From: an uncultured Clostridia bacterium
Lineage (GTDB): Bacteria; Bacillota; Clostridia; TANB77; CAG-508
NCBI GenBank assembly: GCA_948502395.1
Contig: CAOPES010000001.1
Location: 64,957 to 128,956 of the forward strand
Reading direction: 5' to 3'
Length of the DNA stretch: 64,000 nt
In this document: positions 21,351-30,268 of the stretch, one piece after another
Position numbering within the stretch: the stretch's first letter is position 1
Layout: every line of letters begins with the position of its first letter
Program-made: the position numbers and the translations under genes
Notes under the pieces: model-generated
The model's database searches: none
What the model was told of the DNA's origin: nothing
What the model saw: only the letters and a program-made list of their open reading frames with translations

Positions 21351-21446
21351 GGTAATAATCGTAGGGTAAAGCTAATTAACAAGGGGAGGGGATATTTTTT
21401 ATCCCAAAAGAATTACCCGAAAAGAAAAAGTGTCCCCTGACAAATA
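21351..21446 (+). repeat. about 85-nt structured repeat element, copy A (immediately 5' of rpsJ RBS)
   Basis: Sequence GGGTAAAGC...AAGGGGAGGGGATATTTTTTATCCC...GTGTCCCCTGACAAAT. Homologous to copies at 25228, 26653 and 30185. Confidence 0.6.
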
Positions 21447-21467
21447 TTAGAAGGAGGGAAAATTACA

Positions 21468-21791
21468 ATGGCAAACACAGTAGCAACAAGCGAAAAAATT
21501 AGAATAAGACTAAAAGCATATGACCATGTAGTTTTAGATCAGTCTGCTGAAAAGATAGTAGATACTGCTAAGAAAACAGGAGCAAAGGTTTCAGGTCCTA
21601 TTCCATTACCAACACAAAAAGAAGTCGTAACAATCTTACGTTCTCCACACAAATACAAAGATTCAAGAGAACAATTTGAAATGAGAACACATAAAAGAGT
21701 AATTGACATCTTATACCCAACACAAAAAACAGTTGACAGTTTAATGAAATTAGAACTACCAGCTGGTGTTGACATCGAAATCAAATTATAA
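21468..21791 (+). CDS. rpsJ: 30S ribosomal protein S10
   Basis: [10 protein letters not shown]...GPIPLPT motif. Confidence 0.95.
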
Positions 21792-21995
21792 TTAAAAACT
21801 ACATATATAATGTAGCAACAAACAAAAATTAAACCACGCTGGAAAAACCAATAGCGATCAAAAACGAGTATTGCAAGGCAAACGAACGAAAAAAGCGGAA
21901 GCGTACTTATGTACGTTGAGCATTTTTGAGAGAAGTTTAACACAGCAAAACGAAGTTTTTCATTGGTATTCAGCCAATAGTTAGGAGGAAAGAAA

Positions 21996-22631
21996 ATGAG
22001 CAAAGGAATTATCGGTAAAAAAATCGGTATGACACAAATATTTGATGAAAAAGGAAATGTAATTCCAGTAACAGTAATAGAAACAGCTGGAAACACAGTA
22101 GCACAAATAAAAACAATAGAAACAGACGGATACAACGCTATCCAATTAGGATATGGAGAAATAAAAGACAAACATATCAACAAACCAGAAGCTGGACATT
22201 TTGCAAAAGCAAAACTAGCAAACAAAAAACATCTAAGAGAATTCAGAATGGACGATGTAGCAAACTACAAAGTAGGAGATGAAGTAAAAGCAGACATCTT
22301 CGCAGCAGGAGAAAAAATCGACGTTCAAGGAACATCAAAAGGAAAAGGATTCCAAGGTGTTATAAAAAGACATGGACAATCAAGAGGACCAATGGGACAT
22401 GGTTCAATGTATCACAGAAGACCAGGTTCAATGGGATCTACATCAACACCAGGAAGAGTATTCAAAGGTAAAAAACTACCAGGACATATGGGAAGAGTTA
22501 CAGTTACAATACAAAACTTAGATGTTGTAAGAGTAGATATGGATAAAAACGTAATATTAGTAAAAGGAAGCGTTCCAGGACCAAAAGGAGCAATTCTAAA
22601 AGTAAAATCAGCTGTAAAGGCTAGTAAATAG
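21996..22631 (+). CDS. rplC: 50S ribosomal protein L3
   Basis: [17 protein letters not shown] motif. Confidence 0.95.
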
Positions 22632-22652
22632 AAAGGAAGGAGGAGTTAAATC

Positions 22653-23276
22653 ATGCCAAAAGTAGACGTATATGATATTAAAGGTAAAAAAGTAAGTGAT
22701 ATAGAATTAGCTGAAAACGTATTTGGAATTGAACCAAACGAAAACATAGTACACAGCGTACTAGTTAACTACTTAGCTAATCAAAGACAAGGTACACAAA
22801 GTACAAAAACAAGAGCAGAAGTTCGTGGTGGTGGAAGAAAGCCATGGAGACAAAAAGGAACAGGTAGAGCAAGACAAGGTTCAATAAGAGCTCCACAATG
22901 GATAAAAGGTGGTATAGCACTAGGACCAAAACCTCGTTCATACAAATATACAGTTAATAAAAAAGAAAGAAGACTTGCAATCAAGTCAGTATTAAGTTCT
23001 AAAGTATTAGAAAAACAACTAACAGTAGTTGATAAATTAGAATTAAAAGAAATCAAAACAAAATCAATGGTAAATGCATTAGCAGCATTAAAAGTAGAAG
23101 GAAAAACATTAATAGTAGTTCCAGAAGTTAACAAAAATGTTCTAATGTCAGCAAGAAACATTGAAGGTGTTAAAACAATAACAGCAAACAACATCAATGT
23201 ATTTGATTTATTAAAATATAACAATCTAATTTTATCAATAGACACTGTTAAAAAATTAGAGGAGGTGTACGCATAA
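22653..23276 (+). CDS. rplD: 50S ribosomal protein L4
   Basis: GGGRKPWRQKGTGRAR motif. Confidence 0.95.
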   Translation: MPKVDVYDIKGKKVSDIELAENVFGIEPNENIVHSVLVNYLANQRQGTQSTKTRAEVRGGGRKPWRQKGTGRARQGSIRAPQWIKGGIALGPKPRSYKYTVNKKERRLAIKSVLSSKVLEKQLTVVDKLELKEIKTKSMVNALAALKVEGKTLIVVPEVNKNVLMSARNIEGVKTITANNINVFDLLKYNNLILSIDTVKKLEEVYA

Positions 23277-23623
23277 TGCTACCAGAAGAAATAATAATTG
23301 CACCAGTTGTTACAGAAAAGAGTAACGACCAATTACAAGAAGGTAAATACACTTTCAAAGTAAACAAAAAAGCTACAAAAGTTGAAATAGCAAAAGCTGT
23401 TGAAAAACTTTTTGAAGTTAAAGTATTAAAAGTAAATACAATGACAGTAAACGGAAAACAAAAAAGAGTTGGATACCACACAGGTAAAACATCTGACTGG
23501 AAAAAAGCTATCGTAACAATCGATACAAACCCAGAAGAAAAAACATACCTTGCTAAAGGTGGAAAAACAACAAAAATAAGCAAGAAATACAAAGATTCTA
23601 TTGATGAATTTATGGGTGCTTAG
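23276..23623 (+). CDS. rplW: 50S ribosomal protein L23 (with C-terminal extension)
   Basis: Synteny, plus KYTFKVNKKATKVEIAKAVEKLF. The TAATG overlap with rplD is typical. Confidence 0.9.
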   Translation: MLPEEIIIAPVVTEKSNDQLQEGKYTFKVNKKATKVEIAKAVEKLFEVKVLKVNTMTVNGKQKRVGYHTGKTSDWKKAIVTIDTNPEEKTYLAKGGKTTKISKKYKDSIDEFMGA

Positions 23624-23695
23624 GCAAAATCAATTTTGCAAAAATTATCTGGAGAACACCAGGAAAATAAATTATAATAAAGGAGAGAAAATAAA

Positions 23696-28354: not shown

Positions 28355-28540
28355 ATGGCTAAAACTTCAATGAAAGTAAAACAAGCTAGACCACAAAAAT
28401 ATAAAACTAGAGAATATAATAGATGTAAATTATGTGGTAGACCACATGCTTATATTAGAAAATATGGTATTTGCCGTGTATGCTTTAGAGAATTAGCTCA
28501 TAAAGGAGAAATCCCGGGAGTTAAGAAAGCTAGCTGGTAA
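28355..28540 (+). CDS. rpsZ: 30S ribosomal protein S14 type Z (zinc-binding, 61 aa)
   Basis: C..C...C..C motif ([25 protein letters not shown]). Confidence 0.95.
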
Positions 28541-28648
28541 GAAAATCGATTGAAAGCAGCAACATGCACATTTAATAAAAATGCACATCTTACTACTTTG
28601 AATCAATTTTAAAAAACAATAAAAGAAAGAAAAGGAGGTACGTAATAA

Positions 28649-29047
28649 ATGAACATTACAGATCCAATAGCAGATATGTTAACAAGAATTAGAAATGCAA
28701 ATAGTTCAAAACATAAAACAGTTGATATCCCAGCTTCTAACATGAAACTAGGAATTGCTGAAATATTATTCAACGAAGGATATATTAAATCTTTTGAAGA
28801 AATCAAAGACGATACTCAAGGAATTATCAGAATTACTTTAAAGTATGATGAAAAAGGAACTAGAGTTATCGACGGATTAAAAAGAATTAGTAAACCAGGA
28901 TTAAGAGTTTATGCATCTAAGGATGAATTACCAAAAGTTCTTAATGGATTAGGTATTGCAATAATCTCTACATCTAAGGGTTTAAAAACAGATAAACAAG
29001 CTAGAGAATTAGGCGTAGGTGGAGAAGTTCTTGCTTACGTATGGTAA
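28649..29047 (+). CDS. rpsH: 30S ribosomal protein S8
   Basis: [13 protein letters not shown] motif. Confidence 0.95.
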
Positions 29048-29114
29048 AATCGATTAAAAACAGTAATTTTTAATCAATTTTGAAAAAATGAAAAGGAAAA
29101 GGAGGCAAAACCAG

Positions 29115-29651
29115 ATGTCAAGAATAGGAAATAAAACTATTATAGTACCAGAAGGTGTTGAAGTTAAAATTGACGGAAAACATATTTCTGTTAAAGGACC
29201 AAAAGGTACATTAGAAAGAGAAATACATAAAAATATTTCTGTAGAAATGAATGGAAACGAAATTAAAGTTACAAGACCAAATGATGAACCTGCTAACAGA
29301 AGTTTACATGGTTTAACAAGAACTTTAATTAATAATATGATAACAGGTGTAACTCATGAATACAGCAAAGAATTACAAATTAATGGTGTTGGTTACAGAG
29401 TTGCAAAACAAGGAAATAACTTAAATTTAACATTAGGTTATTCACATCCAGTAGTATTCGAAGCACCAGCAGGAATTACTTTTGATGTTCCTAATGCTAA
29501 TACAATTATTGTTAAGGGAATTGATAAAGAATTAGTTGGGCAAACAGCAGCAGTTATAAGAACTAAAAGACCACCTGAGGTTTATAGAGGTAAAGGTATT
29601 AAGTATGCTGATGAAGTTATTCGTAGAAAAGAAGGTAAAACTGGTAAATAA
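29115..29651 (+). CDS. rplF: 50S ribosomal protein L6
   Basis: MSRIGNKTIIVPEGV. The ORF-track start at 29088 overlaps the RBS, so ATG 29115 is preferred. Confidence 0.9.
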   Translation: MSRIGNKTIIVPEGVEVKIDGKHISVKGPKGTLEREIHKNISVEMNGNEIKVTRPNDEPANRSLHGLTRTLINNMITGVTHEYSKELQINGVGYRVAKQGNNLNLTLGYSHPVVFEAPAGITFDVPNANTIIVKGIDKELVGQTAAVIRTKRPPEVYRGKGIKYADEVIRRKEGKTGK

Positions 29652-29809
29652 ATTTCGATTAAATCCAATATCTTGCACATTTTCGCTATTTATTTCAAAC
29701 TTCGACGTACCTATGTACGCCATCAGCTTGTAATAAATATCAAAAATGCACAATATACCGAATTTAATCAAAATTATAGAAAAAGATTACTAAGAAAGGA
29801 GTAATAAAA

Positions 29810-30169
29810 ATGGTTAAGAAAACAGATAGAAAAATGGAAAGAGCTAGAAGACATGCTAGAGTAAGAAGAAAAATATCTGGAACAGCTGAAAGACCAAGAT
29901 TATGCGTATATAGAAGTAATACAAATTTATATGTACAAATAATTGATGACGTTGCAGAAAAAACACTAGTTGCAGCTTCAACATTAGATAAAGATGTTAA
30001 AACAAAACATGCTAATAGAGAAGCAGCAAAAGAATTAGGAACATTAATTGCTAAAAAAGCAGCAGATAAAAAAATTACAACAGTAGTATTCGACCGTGGT
30101 GGATACATCTATCATGGAGTTGTTAAAGAATTAGCAGAAGCTGCAAGAGAAGGCGGTTTAGTATTCTAA
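29810..30169 (+). CDS. rplR: 50S ribosomal protein L18
   Basis: [20 protein letters not shown] motif. Confidence 0.95.
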
Positions 30170-30184
30170 GTTTGAAATATAATA

Positions 30185-30268
30185 TAGGGTAATCACATAT
30201 TCATAAGGGGAAGGGACATTCCTTGAACCACAGTGAATAGGCTAAAAAGCAAAGGTGTGTCCCTTGTC
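30185..30268 (+). repeat. about 85-nt structured repeat element, copy D (5' of rpsE)
   Basis: Sequence GGGTAATCACATATTCATAAGGGGAAGGGACATTCCTTGAACCACAGTGAATAGGCTAAAAAGCAAAGGTGTGTCCCTTGTCG. Confidence 0.65.

What the first reader, a model, noticed from the sequence alone, without database searches (positions are those of the whole stretch)
21351..30268. Four homologous ~85-nt hairpin elements inserted inside the S10/spc ribosomal-protein operon (5' of rpsJ, rpsC, rpsQ, rpsE)
Copies at 21351-21446, 25228-25314, 26653-26738 and 30185-30268 share the following consensus.

GGGTAATCACATATTCAYAMGGGKARGGGACATTYCTTG..CCACA.(A/T)GAA...AAAAG.AAAGRTGTGTCCCYTGAC(A/G)AAT

The internal AGGGGACA / TGTCCCCT arms can form a long stem. 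Each copy sits exactly in an intergenic spacer that is only a few nt long in most Firmicutes (L22-S3, L29-S17, L18-S5), and is followed directly by the downstream gene's RBS. They lack a T-run, so they are not terminators. Their TTGACA word is not followed by a usable -10, so they are probably not promoters either. Possibilities: a MITE/REP-like element tolerated in highly transcribed operons, RNase III or other processing sites, or r-protein-binding translational operators. I do not recognise them as a described r-protein leader.
Basis: seen in the sequence. Interest (0 to 1): 0.7.

Follow-up and report, generated by a model that had tools for sequence, protein, structure and literature searches.

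The report
Mobile RNA hairpin before ribosomal-protein genes
Four copies of an undescribed ~92-base hairpin-forming sequence sit just ahead of four ribosomal-protein genes here, and the same element precedes about 30 different translation-machinery genes in at least 68 uncultured gut Clostridia, varying even between strains of one species.

Summary
Four homologous ~92-nt elements lie on the + strand at 21360-21449, 25227-25318, 26651-26741 and 30183-30276, each between an upstream stop codon (or the rpsJ 5'UTR) and the next gene's RBS. They match no Rfam family and carry no promoter or terminator signal.

A covariance model built from these four copies finds 237 more in 68 species-level gut Clostridia MAGs and 35 in metagenome contigs. 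All classifiable copies are co-oriented with the genes. Of 225 classified, 194 lie directly 5' of a ribosomal-protein gene. The rest precede EF-G, RpoB, DnaK, Ffh, RF1, GAPDH and two unknown proteins.

A 14-bp stem is 95-96% paired with compensatory changes. A 5'-flank/loop pseudoknot has weaker support.

Occupancy differs between strains that are 97% identical. Copies that are 90% or more identical occur in different spacers and operons, so the element is mobile or copied.

My best reading (confidence about 0.4) is a transcribed, mobile intercistronic RNA module that protects, processes or punctuates the downstream cistron. The rivals are a selfish hairpin transposon that is merely tolerated, and a shared operator for one regulator. 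Function is untested. I class it as a new variant of transcribed intergenic repeats, unusual for its target specificity.

The parts
21360..21449 (+). Element copy 1, in the rpsJ 5'UTR. Stem P1 arms are 21387-21400 and 21425-21438. The rpsJ SD (GGAGG) is at 21453-21457 and the ATG at 21468.
   Evidence: Sequence. R1 score 93.0 bits. It lies downstream of the operon promoter at 21117-21145. The orthologous copy is 97-98% identical in conspecific strains.
25227..25318 (+). Element copy 2, in the rplV(L22)-rpsC(S3) spacer. P1 arms are 25255-25268 and 25294-25307. The SD is at 25324-25328 and the ATG at 25340.
   Evidence: Sequence. R1 score 94.8 bits. It is absent from strains L001-L003, which are 97% identical and have a 24-nt spacer here.
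26651..26741 (+). Element copy 3, in the rpmC(L29)-rpsQ(S17) spacer. P1 arms are 26679-26692 and 26717-26730. The SD is at 26743-26746 and the ATG at 26755.
   Evidence: Sequence. R1 score 103.3 bits. Conspecific strains hold a different subtype in this same spacer, scoring 65-67 bits.
30183..30276 (+). Element copy 4, in the rplR(L18)-rpsE(S5) spacer. P1 arms are 30211-30224 and 30252-30265. The SD is at 30280-30285 and the ATG at 30300.
   Evidence: Sequence. R1 score 94.1 bits. It is present in L002 and L004 and absent in L001 and L003, which have a 33-nt spacer.
21117..21145 (+). Promoter-like site TTGACA-17-TATAAT (12 of 12 matches) for the S10 operon. It places copy 1 inside the transcribed leader.
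   Evidence: It is a consensus match only and was not tested.

Best explanation
The four sequences belong to an undescribed family of ~92-nt, non-coding elements that are transcribed as part of operon mRNAs and have spread by copying into many spacers.

Each copy lies in the sense orientation between the stop codon of one gene and the Shine-Dalgarno sequence of the next. It occurs almost only ahead of ribosomal-protein genes and other heavily expressed translation or transcription genes.

In the RNA it folds into a 14-bp stem (AGGGGACAUxCCUU / AAGGxUGUGUCCCCU) with one conserved U.G pair. The stem closes a ~30-nt loop, and the centre of that loop can pair with the conserved 5' flank (GGUxA...UUCAC) to form a pseudoknot.

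I infer that it acts in cis on the mRNA. It would be a compact structured block at the 5' edge of the downstream cistron. It would serve as a processing or punctuation site and a barrier to 5'-to-3' decay by RNase J/Y-type enzymes, so the downstream, highly expressed cistron is stabilised or uncoupled from its upstream neighbour.

What is shown: homology, position, orientation, the stem with covariation, context specificity and turnover. What is inferred: transcription, any effect on mRNA, and the way it is copied.
For: Family and specificity:
- The model from the four window copies finds 162 + 75 copies in 68 of 70 species-level genomes recovered by a context-blind pattern scan. It finds 35 more in metagenome contigs.
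- Of 225 classified copies, 221 have an identified same-strand neighbour, 194 have a ribosomal-protein gene directly downstream and 210 have one on either side. There are 24 named spacer types. In addition there are pre-S10, pre-RpoB, GAPDH, RsmH>unknown and unknown>unknown contexts.
- Several contexts put a strongly expressed gene after a weakly expressed one. These are TrmD>L19 (14 copies), NusG>L11, GrpE>DnaK, YlxM>Ffh, S7>EF-G and pre-GAPDH.
- The start codon lies 9-26 nt after the model end in 182 of 219 copies.

Structure:
- P1 is 96.2% paired in 142 distinct sequences. Seven of 14 pairs change on both sides, across 93 cells, and 0 of 500 shuffles reach this.
- On a non-redundant MAFFT alignment P1 is 94.9% paired.
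- A U.G pair is conserved at one position. On the other strand it would be a C.A mismatch.
- The flank-loop helices are 72% paired, against 26-45% when the partner is slid. One of 500 shuffles reaches the observed pairing.
- Cognate flank-loop duplex energy is -8.4 kcal/mol. It is -7.0 for non-cognate pairs and -5.2 for shuffled loops.
- Flank class and loop class change together.

Tandem copies: the RBS-proximal copy keeps an intact stem, while distal copies have lost the CCC of the 3' arm.

Second family: an unrelated hairpin family occupies other spacers of the same operons, also co-oriented in 52 of 52 cases. This fits a general use or tolerance of structured spacers there.
Against: - There are no expression data, so transcription, processing and stabilisation are all inferred.
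- Individual copies are dispensable. Three sites differ in occupancy between strains that are 97.3-97.6% identical.
- Predicted RBS accessibility does not differ between filled and empty alleles.
- Strong sequence conservation in the stem and flanks is more than a simple barrier hairpin would need.
- Apart from the one conserved U.G pair, G.U and A.C mismatches are equally frequent (30 vs 28). Strand-specific RNA selection is therefore only weakly shown.
- Pseudoknot support is moderate, and the register differs between subtypes.
- The L1>L10 copies lie 136-230 nt from the start codon.
Confidence: 0.4

Rival explanations
1. It is a selfish hairpin transposon with no host function. A non-autonomous element is mobilised in trans through a single-strand DNA hairpin by an IS200/IS605- or RAYT-type Y1 transposase. 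It inserts into DNA that is often single-stranded, meaning highly transcribed and co-oriented with replication. It survives only where a compact fold does no harm. The conserved stem would then be a DNA hairpin or a 'harmless fold' requirement.
For: - Occupancy is patchy across 68 genomes and polymorphic within a species.
- Copies do not cluster by spacer. Mean identity is 0.743 for the same spacer in different genomes and 0.775 for different spacers in the same genome. There are 91 pairs at 90% identity or more across different spacers and operons.
- Filled and empty sites show no target-site duplication, as expected for IS200/IS605-type insertion (established knowledge).
- The single orientation matches lagging-strand-template insertion into co-oriented genes (inference).
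- Tandem and truncated copies exist.
- A second hairpin family shares the same niche.
- Filled and empty alleles have the same predicted RBS accessibility.
Against: - No transposase was identified or looked for.
- No conserved target motif is seen at the three junctions.
- There is one hairpin rather than two subterminal ones.
- Near-exclusive residence next to an RBS of translation genes, including in long leaders (pre-S10 at 18 nt, GAPDH and RF1 at 14 nt), needs very strong selection or an unknown targeting rule.
- In-window copies are only 64-75% identical, so this is not a recent burst.
- Flank-loop co-variation is not expected of a DNA end.
Confidence: 0.3
2. It is a shared translational operator. 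One trans-acting factor (a protein such as a ribosomal protein or an RNA-binding regulator, or a small RNA) recognises the conserved stem and loop sequence in every copy. It thereby co-regulates initiation of many translation-apparatus genes.
For: - The same conserved sequence, not just a structure, lies at a fixed short distance 5' of the SD of about 29 different genes of one functional class.
- Invariant unpaired nucleotides (AUUCAC, AAGGGG, GAC) flank the stem.
- The position, ending about 28 nt upstream of the start codon, is typical of r-protein operators (established knowledge).
Against: - Copies are gained and lost between strains of one species.
- Each genome has a different, partial set of occupied genes. 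That is a poor basis for coordinated control.
- A second, unrelated family sits at equivalent sites.
- No candidate factor was found.
Confidence: 0.15
3. It is a ligand-sensing riboswitch or a self-cleaving ribozyme of a new class, placed before translation genes.
For: - It has a pseudoknot-like architecture with conserved joining nucleotides.
- It sits immediately 5' of the RBS.
- It appears in multi-copy and tandem arrangements, as seen for some ribozymes (established knowledge).
Against: - It matches no Rfam ribozyme or riboswitch even at E-value up to 10.
- The SD is not part of the conserved fold.
- The loop varies in length and sequence between subtypes.
- Individual copies are dispensable.
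Confidence: 0.06
4. It is an internal promoter or an intrinsic terminator or attenuator.
For: Some copies contain a TTGACA-like word, CC(C/T)TGACA.
Against: - No promoter-like or terminator-like site on the + strand overlaps the P1 stem or the TTGACA-like word of any copy. The only overlap is a weak 9-of-12 match at 30172-30201 on the 5' flank of copy 4, and such sites are fewer than in shuffled sequence.
- No U-run follows the stem.
- Most copies read CTGACA.
- A transcript starting there would lack the RBS.
Confidence: 0.02

Closest known systems
Transcribed intergenic hairpin repeats (ERIC/IRU of enterobacteria, Correia/CREE of Neisseria, BOX/RUP of pneumococci, SMAG)
   Same: - Short (about 100 nt), non-coding, multi-copy and variable between strains.
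- Located in transcribed intergenic DNA.
- Fold into RNA hairpins that can be RNase III substrates or alter mRNA stability (established knowledge).
- Here, mobility and polymorphism are shown and so is the hairpin.
   Different: - Those repeats occur in both orientations and next to genes of all kinds, often with terminal inverted repeats and target duplications.
- This family has a single orientation and no terminal inverted repeats or duplication.
- It has a few to about ten copies per genome seen.
- It is almost confined to the RBS-proximal spacer of translation-machinery genes.
REP/BIME elements and IS200/IS605-derived PATEs
   Same: - Hairpin-based and strand-specific.
- No target-site duplication.
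- Non-autonomous.
- REPs can stabilise upstream mRNA (established knowledge).
   Different: - REPs are 20-40 nt, present in hundreds of copies, and usually lie 3' of genes.
- PATEs carry two subterminal hairpins and a fixed 4-5-nt target.
- Here there is one 14-bp stem with a ~30-nt loop, positioned 5' of genes, and no common target at three junctions.
Ribosomal-protein leaders (autogenous operators, e.g. Rfam S10-Clostridia, L19, L20 and L10 leaders)
   Same: They are structured RNAs just upstream of ribosomal-protein genes, and some contain pseudoknots.
   Different: - Each known leader is specific to one operon and one binding protein, and is vertically conserved.
- This single family precedes about 29 different genes, is polymorphic within a species, and matches no leader model.
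Intercistronic processing/stabiliser elements (B. subtilis cggR-gapA and dnaK-operon processing with 5' stem-loops; chloroplast PPR10-type intercistronic barriers; flaviviral xrRNA pseudoknots)
   Same: - They offer a working analogy: a structure or bound protein at the 5' edge of a cistron defines a processed end and blocks 5'-to-3' exonuclease (established knowledge).
- GAPDH and GrpE>DnaK are among the contexts found here.
   Different: - Those are unique, locus-specific sequences.
- Here one mobile sequence family serves many loci.
- No processing has been demonstrated.

Membership tests
Any Rfam 15 family (r-protein leaders, riboswitches, ribozymes, sRNAs) | Covariance-model score at or above the family's gathering threshold | tested here: not met
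   A scan of the whole window at gathering thresholds finds only glmS and a tRNA. A scan of 21000-33000 at E-values up to 10 gives no hit overlapping any copy.
Classical MITE | Terminal inverted repeats at the element ends | tested here: not met
   The 5' end consensus (A)GGGTAATCAC and the 3' end CCCCTGACAAAT are not complementary. The inverted repeat is internal, forming P1.
Classical MITE | Target-site duplication flanking the insertion | tested here: inconclusive
   Three filled/empty comparisons show no clear duplication, but the A-rich flanks make the junctions ambiguous.
Classical MITE | Multi-copy, with presence/absence polymorphism and near-identical copies at unrelated sites | tested here: met
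   There are 91 pairs at 90% identity or more between different spacers.
IS200/IS605-derived PATE or REP-RAYT system | A cognate Y1 transposase or RAYT gene in the genome, with element hairpins resembling its ends | not tested
   Only 8-kb blocks around the elements were available. Whole genomes could not be scanned.
IS200/IS605-derived PATE | Insertion 3' of a fixed 4-5-nt target, with single orientation and no duplication | tested here: inconclusive
   Single orientation and absence of a duplication are met. No shared target word is seen at three junctions.
REP/BIME | Palindromes of 20-40 nt, hundreds of copies, mostly 3' of genes or between convergent genes | tested here: not met
   The unit is 92 nt, with at most about 10 copies seen per genome, always 5' of a co-oriented gene.
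ERIC/Correia/BOX-type transcribed repeats | Imperfect palindrome in transcribed intergenic DNA that folds as an RNA hairpin | tested here: met
   The elements sit within operons, and copy 1 lies downstream of the promoter. The stem is 95-96% paired with covariation. Transcription itself is inferred.
ERIC/Correia/BOX-type transcribed repeats | Both orientations, and neighbours of any functional class | tested here: not met
   Of 225 copies, 221 are co-oriented with identified neighbours and 210 are adjacent to a ribosomal-protein gene.
Autogenous r-protein operator | Binding of a ribosomal protein encoded in the operon, often by mimicking its rRNA site | not testable with these tools
   No rRNA of these organisms was available and no binding assay was possible.
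Intrinsic terminator / sigma-70 promoter | GC-rich hairpin plus U-run, or -35/-10 hexamers with 16-18-nt spacing | tested here: not met
   No such + strand site overlaps the P1 stem or the TTGACA-like word of any copy. The only overlap is a weak 9-of-12 promoter-like match at 30172-30201 on the 5' flank of copy 4.
Exoribonuclease-resistant RNA (xrRNA-like) | A pseudoknotted fold enclosing the 5' end that halts 5'-to-3' exonucleases | not testable with these tools
   Only a candidate 5'-flank/loop pairing is seen. Testing needs RNase J1/Xrn1 stalling assays.

The most novel reading that the evidence does not exclude
The element is a dedicated post-transcriptional control module for the translation apparatus. 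It would be a bacterial counterpart of the eukaryotic 5'TOP motif that has spread by copying.

One shared RNA fold, a hairpin plus a 5'-flank pseudoknot, would be read by a single factor, or would act as an exonuclease-resistant knot. It would set the stability or translation of dozens of ribosomal-protein, elongation-factor and RNA-polymerase cistrons at once.
Probability: 0.15. Interest if true: 0.9.

Novelty: new variant of a known kind. Interest (0 to 1): 0.7.

Why it matters
Ribosomal-protein operons are among the most conserved and tightly packed gene arrays in bacteria. Their known regulators are one-off leaders, each tied to a single operon.

Here one mobile ~92-nt structured sequence has colonised the RBS-proximal spacer of about 29 different translation-machinery genes in a whole clade of uncultured, small-genome gut Clostridia. 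It turns over within species.

If it acts on the mRNA, it would show how a regulon-like set of cis elements can be assembled by copying. It would also supply a portable stabiliser or insulator part.

If it is purely selfish, it is an unusually clear case of a mobile element with a narrow niche inside essential, highly expressed operons. It would then be a sensitive marker of strain-level variation.

In either case it is a candidate for a new RNA family entry.

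Tried and rejected
- **Small ORF or leader peptide inside the element.** Some type-B copies read ATG GTC AAC... through the stem. Most copies lack the ATG, and loop indels shift the frame. Rejected.
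- **RBS insulation.** Predicted unpaired probability of the SD-to-AUG region is the same for filled and empty alleles: S3 0.53 vs 0.50, S5 0.76 and 0.62 vs 0.76, L14 0.63 vs 0.75. No support.
- **SD sequestration by the freed 3' arm.** Pairing of UCCCCU with AGGAGG gives only 3-4 weak pairs by inspection. Not pursued.
- **Column-wise mutual information between flank and loop.** On the model-fitted alignment this gave no clean covarying pair. Only class-level and energy tests, plus a MAFFT alignment, gave moderate support.
- **RNAalifold on the gappy 150-row alignment.** Uninformative.
- **Target-site duplication or target motif.** None found at three junctions.
- **Clustering of copies by spacer, as expected for vertical inheritance.** Not seen.
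- **Phage origin.** No match to the pattern in 2.9 million viral contigs.
- **Literature.** Three full-text searches and one paper on r-protein leaders gave no description of such an element.
- **Chance pattern matches.** Hits in a Gastranaerophilales MAG, a Thermoplasmata MAG and five JGI metagenome contigs gave no model hit.
- **Host taxon.** Not resolved beyond NCBI names such as 'uncultured Clostridia/Clostridium/Eubacteriales bacterium'.

Full report
**1. Observation**

- 21360-21449
- 25227-25318
- 26651-26741
- 30183-30276

ORF positions, together with Pfam-labelled genes on near-identical public contigs, place them as follows:
- in the rpsJ leader
- in the rplV-rpsC spacer
- in the rpmC-rpsQ spacer
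- in the rplR-rpsE spacer

Each ends 13-25 nt before the start codon of the next gene, just 5' of its Shine-Dalgarno sequence.

The copies are 64-75% identical to each other, in a window of 29.7% GC. A covariance model (R1) built from the four scores them 93-103 bits. With all filters off, the best other hit in the 64-kb window scores 22 bits, at an unrelated palindrome after secY.

**2. Not a known family, promoter or terminator**

- An Rfam 15 scan at gathering thresholds finds only a glmS ribozyme and a tRNA in the window.
- A permissive scan of 21000-33000 (E-value up to 10) gives nothing over the elements.
- The consensus scan finds a perfect TTGACA-17-TATAAT at 21117-21145. This puts copy 1 inside the operon leader.
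- The same scan finds no + strand promoter-like or terminator-like site over the stem or the TTGACA-like word of any element. Its only overlap is a weak 9-of-12 match at 30172-30201, on the 5' flank of copy 4.
- Three literature searches and a reading of the main survey of new r-protein leaders found no description of such an element.

**3. The family outside the window**

I ran a context-blind pattern taken from the invariant 5' half of the element against one genome per species (185,579 species).

- R1 finds 162 + 75 copies in these blocks.
- They lie in 68 of the 70 genomes represented. The other two, a Gastranaerophilales MAG and a Thermoplasmata MAG, are chance pattern matches.
- All 68 are uncultured gut MAGs labelled Clostridia, Clostridium, Eubacteriales or Bacillota. 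Their sources include human, chicken, rabbit, goat and mouse, and one is a closed 1.55-Mb chromosome.
- The same pattern finds nothing in viral contigs.
- It finds 25 metagenome contigs, 20 of which hold 35 model hits.

**4. Context**

I located flanking ORFs on the element's own strand. I named them by BLASTP against the window's proteins and by Pfam.

Of the 225 aligned copies:
- 221 have an identified same-strand neighbour.
- 194 have a ribosomal-protein gene directly downstream.
- 210 have a ribosomal-protein gene on one side or the other.

The commonest spacers:

| Spacer | Copies |
|---|---|
| L18>S5 | 23 |
| L29>S17 | 23 |
| S17>L14 | 17 |
| S5>L15 | 15 |
| TrmD>L19 | 14 |
| S19>L22 | 13 |
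| S8>L6 | 12 |
| L14>L24 | 11 |
| L35>L20 | 8 |
| L22>S3 | 7 |
| RpoA>L17 | 6 |
| S11>S4 | 6 |
| S7>EF-G | 5 |

Further contexts:
- L1>L10, NusG>L11, S12>S7, S14>S8, L6>L18, pre-S10 and pre-RpoB
- GrpE>DnaK, YlxM>Ffh, pre-GAPDH and pre-RF1
- two contexts with unknown proteins

The start codon lies 9-26 nt after the model end in 182 of 219 copies. The upstream stop lies within 40 nt in 161 of 207. The 35 metagenome copies show the same contexts.

The retrieval used only the element's own sequence, so this restriction to translation and transcription machinery genes is not a search artefact. Decayed copies elsewhere would, however, have been missed.

**5. Structure**

The main stem (P1) has a 5' arm A-GGGG-ACAU-x-CCUU and a 3' arm AAGG-x-UGUG-UCCCC-U.
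- It is 96.2% paired over 142 distinct sequences. Seven of its 14 pairs change on both sides (for example C-G 73 / U-A 60, and G-C 108 / A-U 17). No shuffle in 500 reaches the observed values, and slid controls give 52-59%.
- On an independent MAFFT alignment of 64 non-redundant copies it is 94.9% paired.
- One U.G pair is nearly invariant. It favours the sense strand. Without it, G.U (30) and A.C (28) mismatches are balanced.

The loop is about 30 nt and comes in subtypes. A short extension of the stem across a 2x2 internal loop is only 51% paired.

The conserved 5' flank (GGUxA ... UUCAC) is complementary to the centre of the loop (GUGGA..UyACC). With P1 this would form a pseudoknot. The evidence is as follows:
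- Duplex energy is -8.4 kcal/mol, against -5.2 for shuffled loops and -7.0 for non-cognate pairs.
- The x:y position is complementary in 79 of 111 copies, against 59.7 ± 4.9 on shuffling.
- Flank classes pair best with their own loop classes.
- On the MAFFT alignment the ten pairs are 72% paired, against 26-45% when slid. One shuffle in 500 reaches this.

The register differs between subtypes, and no single column pair covaries cleanly. I therefore treat the pseudoknot as likely but not established.

**6. Turnover**

Contigs that encode an identical S3 protein are 97.3-97.6% identical to the window across the operon. One, NCBI MAG GCA_948724935.1, is 99.98% identical. Occupancy nevertheless differs:
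- L22-S3 is filled only in the window lineage.
- L18-S5 is filled in the window and L002 but not in L001 or L003.
- S17-L14 is filled only in L003.
- The L29-S17 spacer holds a different subtype in L001-L003 than in the window.

Filled and empty alleles differ by a clean 98-111-nt block between the stop codon and the SD. No evident target duplication is seen.

Across genomes, copies do not group by spacer:
- Mean identity is 0.743 for the same spacer in different genomes.
- Mean identity is 0.775 for different spacers in the same genome.
- 91 pairs at 90% identity or more link different spacers and even different operons, such as NusG>L11 with S5>L15, and RpoA>L17 with S17>L14.

The element has therefore been copied repeatedly into new spacers, or homogenised between them.

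Tandem duplicates and a five-unit array exist. In these the RBS-proximal unit is intact and the distal units lack part of the 3' arm.

**7. Mechanism**

These points are shown:
- a homologous family
- sense orientation
- an RBS-proximal position
- a selected stem
- extreme context specificity
- rapid gain and loss

These points are inferred: that the elements are transcribed, because they lie inside operons, and what they do.

I favour a cis-acting mRNA module (confidence 0.4). It would be a compact fold at the 5' edge of a heavily used cistron, serving as a processing or punctuation site and as a barrier to 5'-to-3' decay.

The points in favour:
- Several contexts place a strongly expressed gene behind a weakly expressed one. 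Examples are TrmD>L19, NusG>L11, GrpE>DnaK, YlxM>Ffh and pre-GAPDH.
- Two of these recall known processed operons of Bacillus (established knowledge).
- P1 plus its extension approaches the length of an RNase III substrate.
- A flank-loop knot would suit an exonuclease block.

The points against:
- There are no expression data.
- Single copies are dispensable.
- Predicted RBS accessibility is unchanged by the insertion.
- Sequence conservation exceeds what a plain hairpin would need.

The main rival (0.3) is a selfish, hairpin-mobilised element that merely survives in this niche. It explains the turnover, the lack of duplication, the single orientation and the presence of a second family. It does not explain the target specificity or the flank-loop co-variation.

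A shared operator for one regulator (0.15) fits the conserved sequence and position, but fits poorly with strain-level gain and loss. A new riboswitch or ribozyme (0.06) and a promoter or terminator (0.02) are unlikely.

**8. Comparison and novelty**

The nearest known kinds are transcribed intergenic hairpin repeats (ERIC, Correia, BOX) and REP/PATE elements. This family differs from them in these ways:
- It has a single orientation.
- It lacks terminal repeats.
- It has a low copy number.
- It is confined to the spacer ahead of translation-machinery genes.

It also differs from r-protein leaders, which are operon-specific and stably inherited.

I class it as a new variant of a known kind. 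The untested possibility that it is a copied, regulon-wide control or stabilising module would be much more novel (probability about 0.15).

**9. Limits**

Copy numbers are therefore lower bounds, and diverged or decayed copies in other contexts would be missed.
- Sequences are related, so shuffle-based statistics overstate independence.
- The host clade is named only from NCBI record titles.

Noticed in passing
window 29652-29809 (L6-L18 spacer), 28541-28648 (S14-S8 spacer, short form); L001 12066-12232 and 13318-13481: A second, unrelated family of ~125-nt imperfect-palindrome elements, with core TGCACATTTTCGCTATTTATTTCAAAC...AATAAATATCAAAAATGCACA. It is also polymorphic between strains that are 97% identical. 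There are 65 hits in the fetched loci, co-oriented with family 1 in 52 of 52 cases. They lie in S14-S8, L6-L18, L14-L24, S13-S11, S7-EF-G, L23-L2 and L11-L1 spacers.
   Followed up: partly
window 21792-21995 (rpsJ-rplC spacer, 204 nt): An unusually long spacer holding another long hairpin centred on GCGTACTTATGTACGT. The + strand terminator-like hit at 21900-21917 lies within it. It is not matched by R1.
   Followed up: no
window 32578-32758 (after secY): Nested palindromes GGGGACGGACCTTTTTGGCAA...TTGCCAAAAAGGTCCGTCCCC share the GGGGAC/GTCCCC words with the element. They give only 22-bit R1 hits on both strands, plus spurious miRNA and rncO sub-threshold Rfam hits. This is probably the operon terminator.
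   Followed up: partly
window 16540-16620: A cluster of small palindromes built on GGGAC words: GGGACGTTTCC.../GGAAACGTCCC and GGACAAAATGTCC, the latter occurring twice. It lies between two + strand genes.
   Followed up: no
window 19006-21116, between ldh and the S10 promoter: A strain-variable island. The window and L004 carry a BspA-type LRR protein (19306/19570-21030). L002 carries a PDDEXK_2 (Rpn-like) gene instead, L003 a small 88-aa ORF, and L001 nothing.
   Followed up: partly
window 21158-21252: A sub-threshold match to the Rfam S10-Clostridia leader (19.6 bits, gathering score 35.1), just downstream of the promoter. The rpsJ leader may therefore carry both an L4-type leader and element copy 1.
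   Followed up: no
window 32759-35660: An Hpt-domain protein and an 843-aa hybrid histidine kinase/response regulator follow secY directly. In most Firmicutes adk-map-infA would follow secY there.
   Followed up: no
L043 1967-2450; L019 306-617; L037, L047, L068, L071, L026, L059, L010 (tandem pairs): Tandem arrays of the element, up to five units with a 98-nt period. Type-B copies carry a conserved 5' extension with an SD-like AAAGAGGAG word about 15 nt upstream of GGUCA. Its origin, whether a relic RBS or part of the unit, is unexplained.
   Followed up: partly
window 1043-1195 (-) and 3367-3440 (-): A glmS ribozyme (88.6 bits) and a tRNA gene. Both are ordinary.
   Followed up: no
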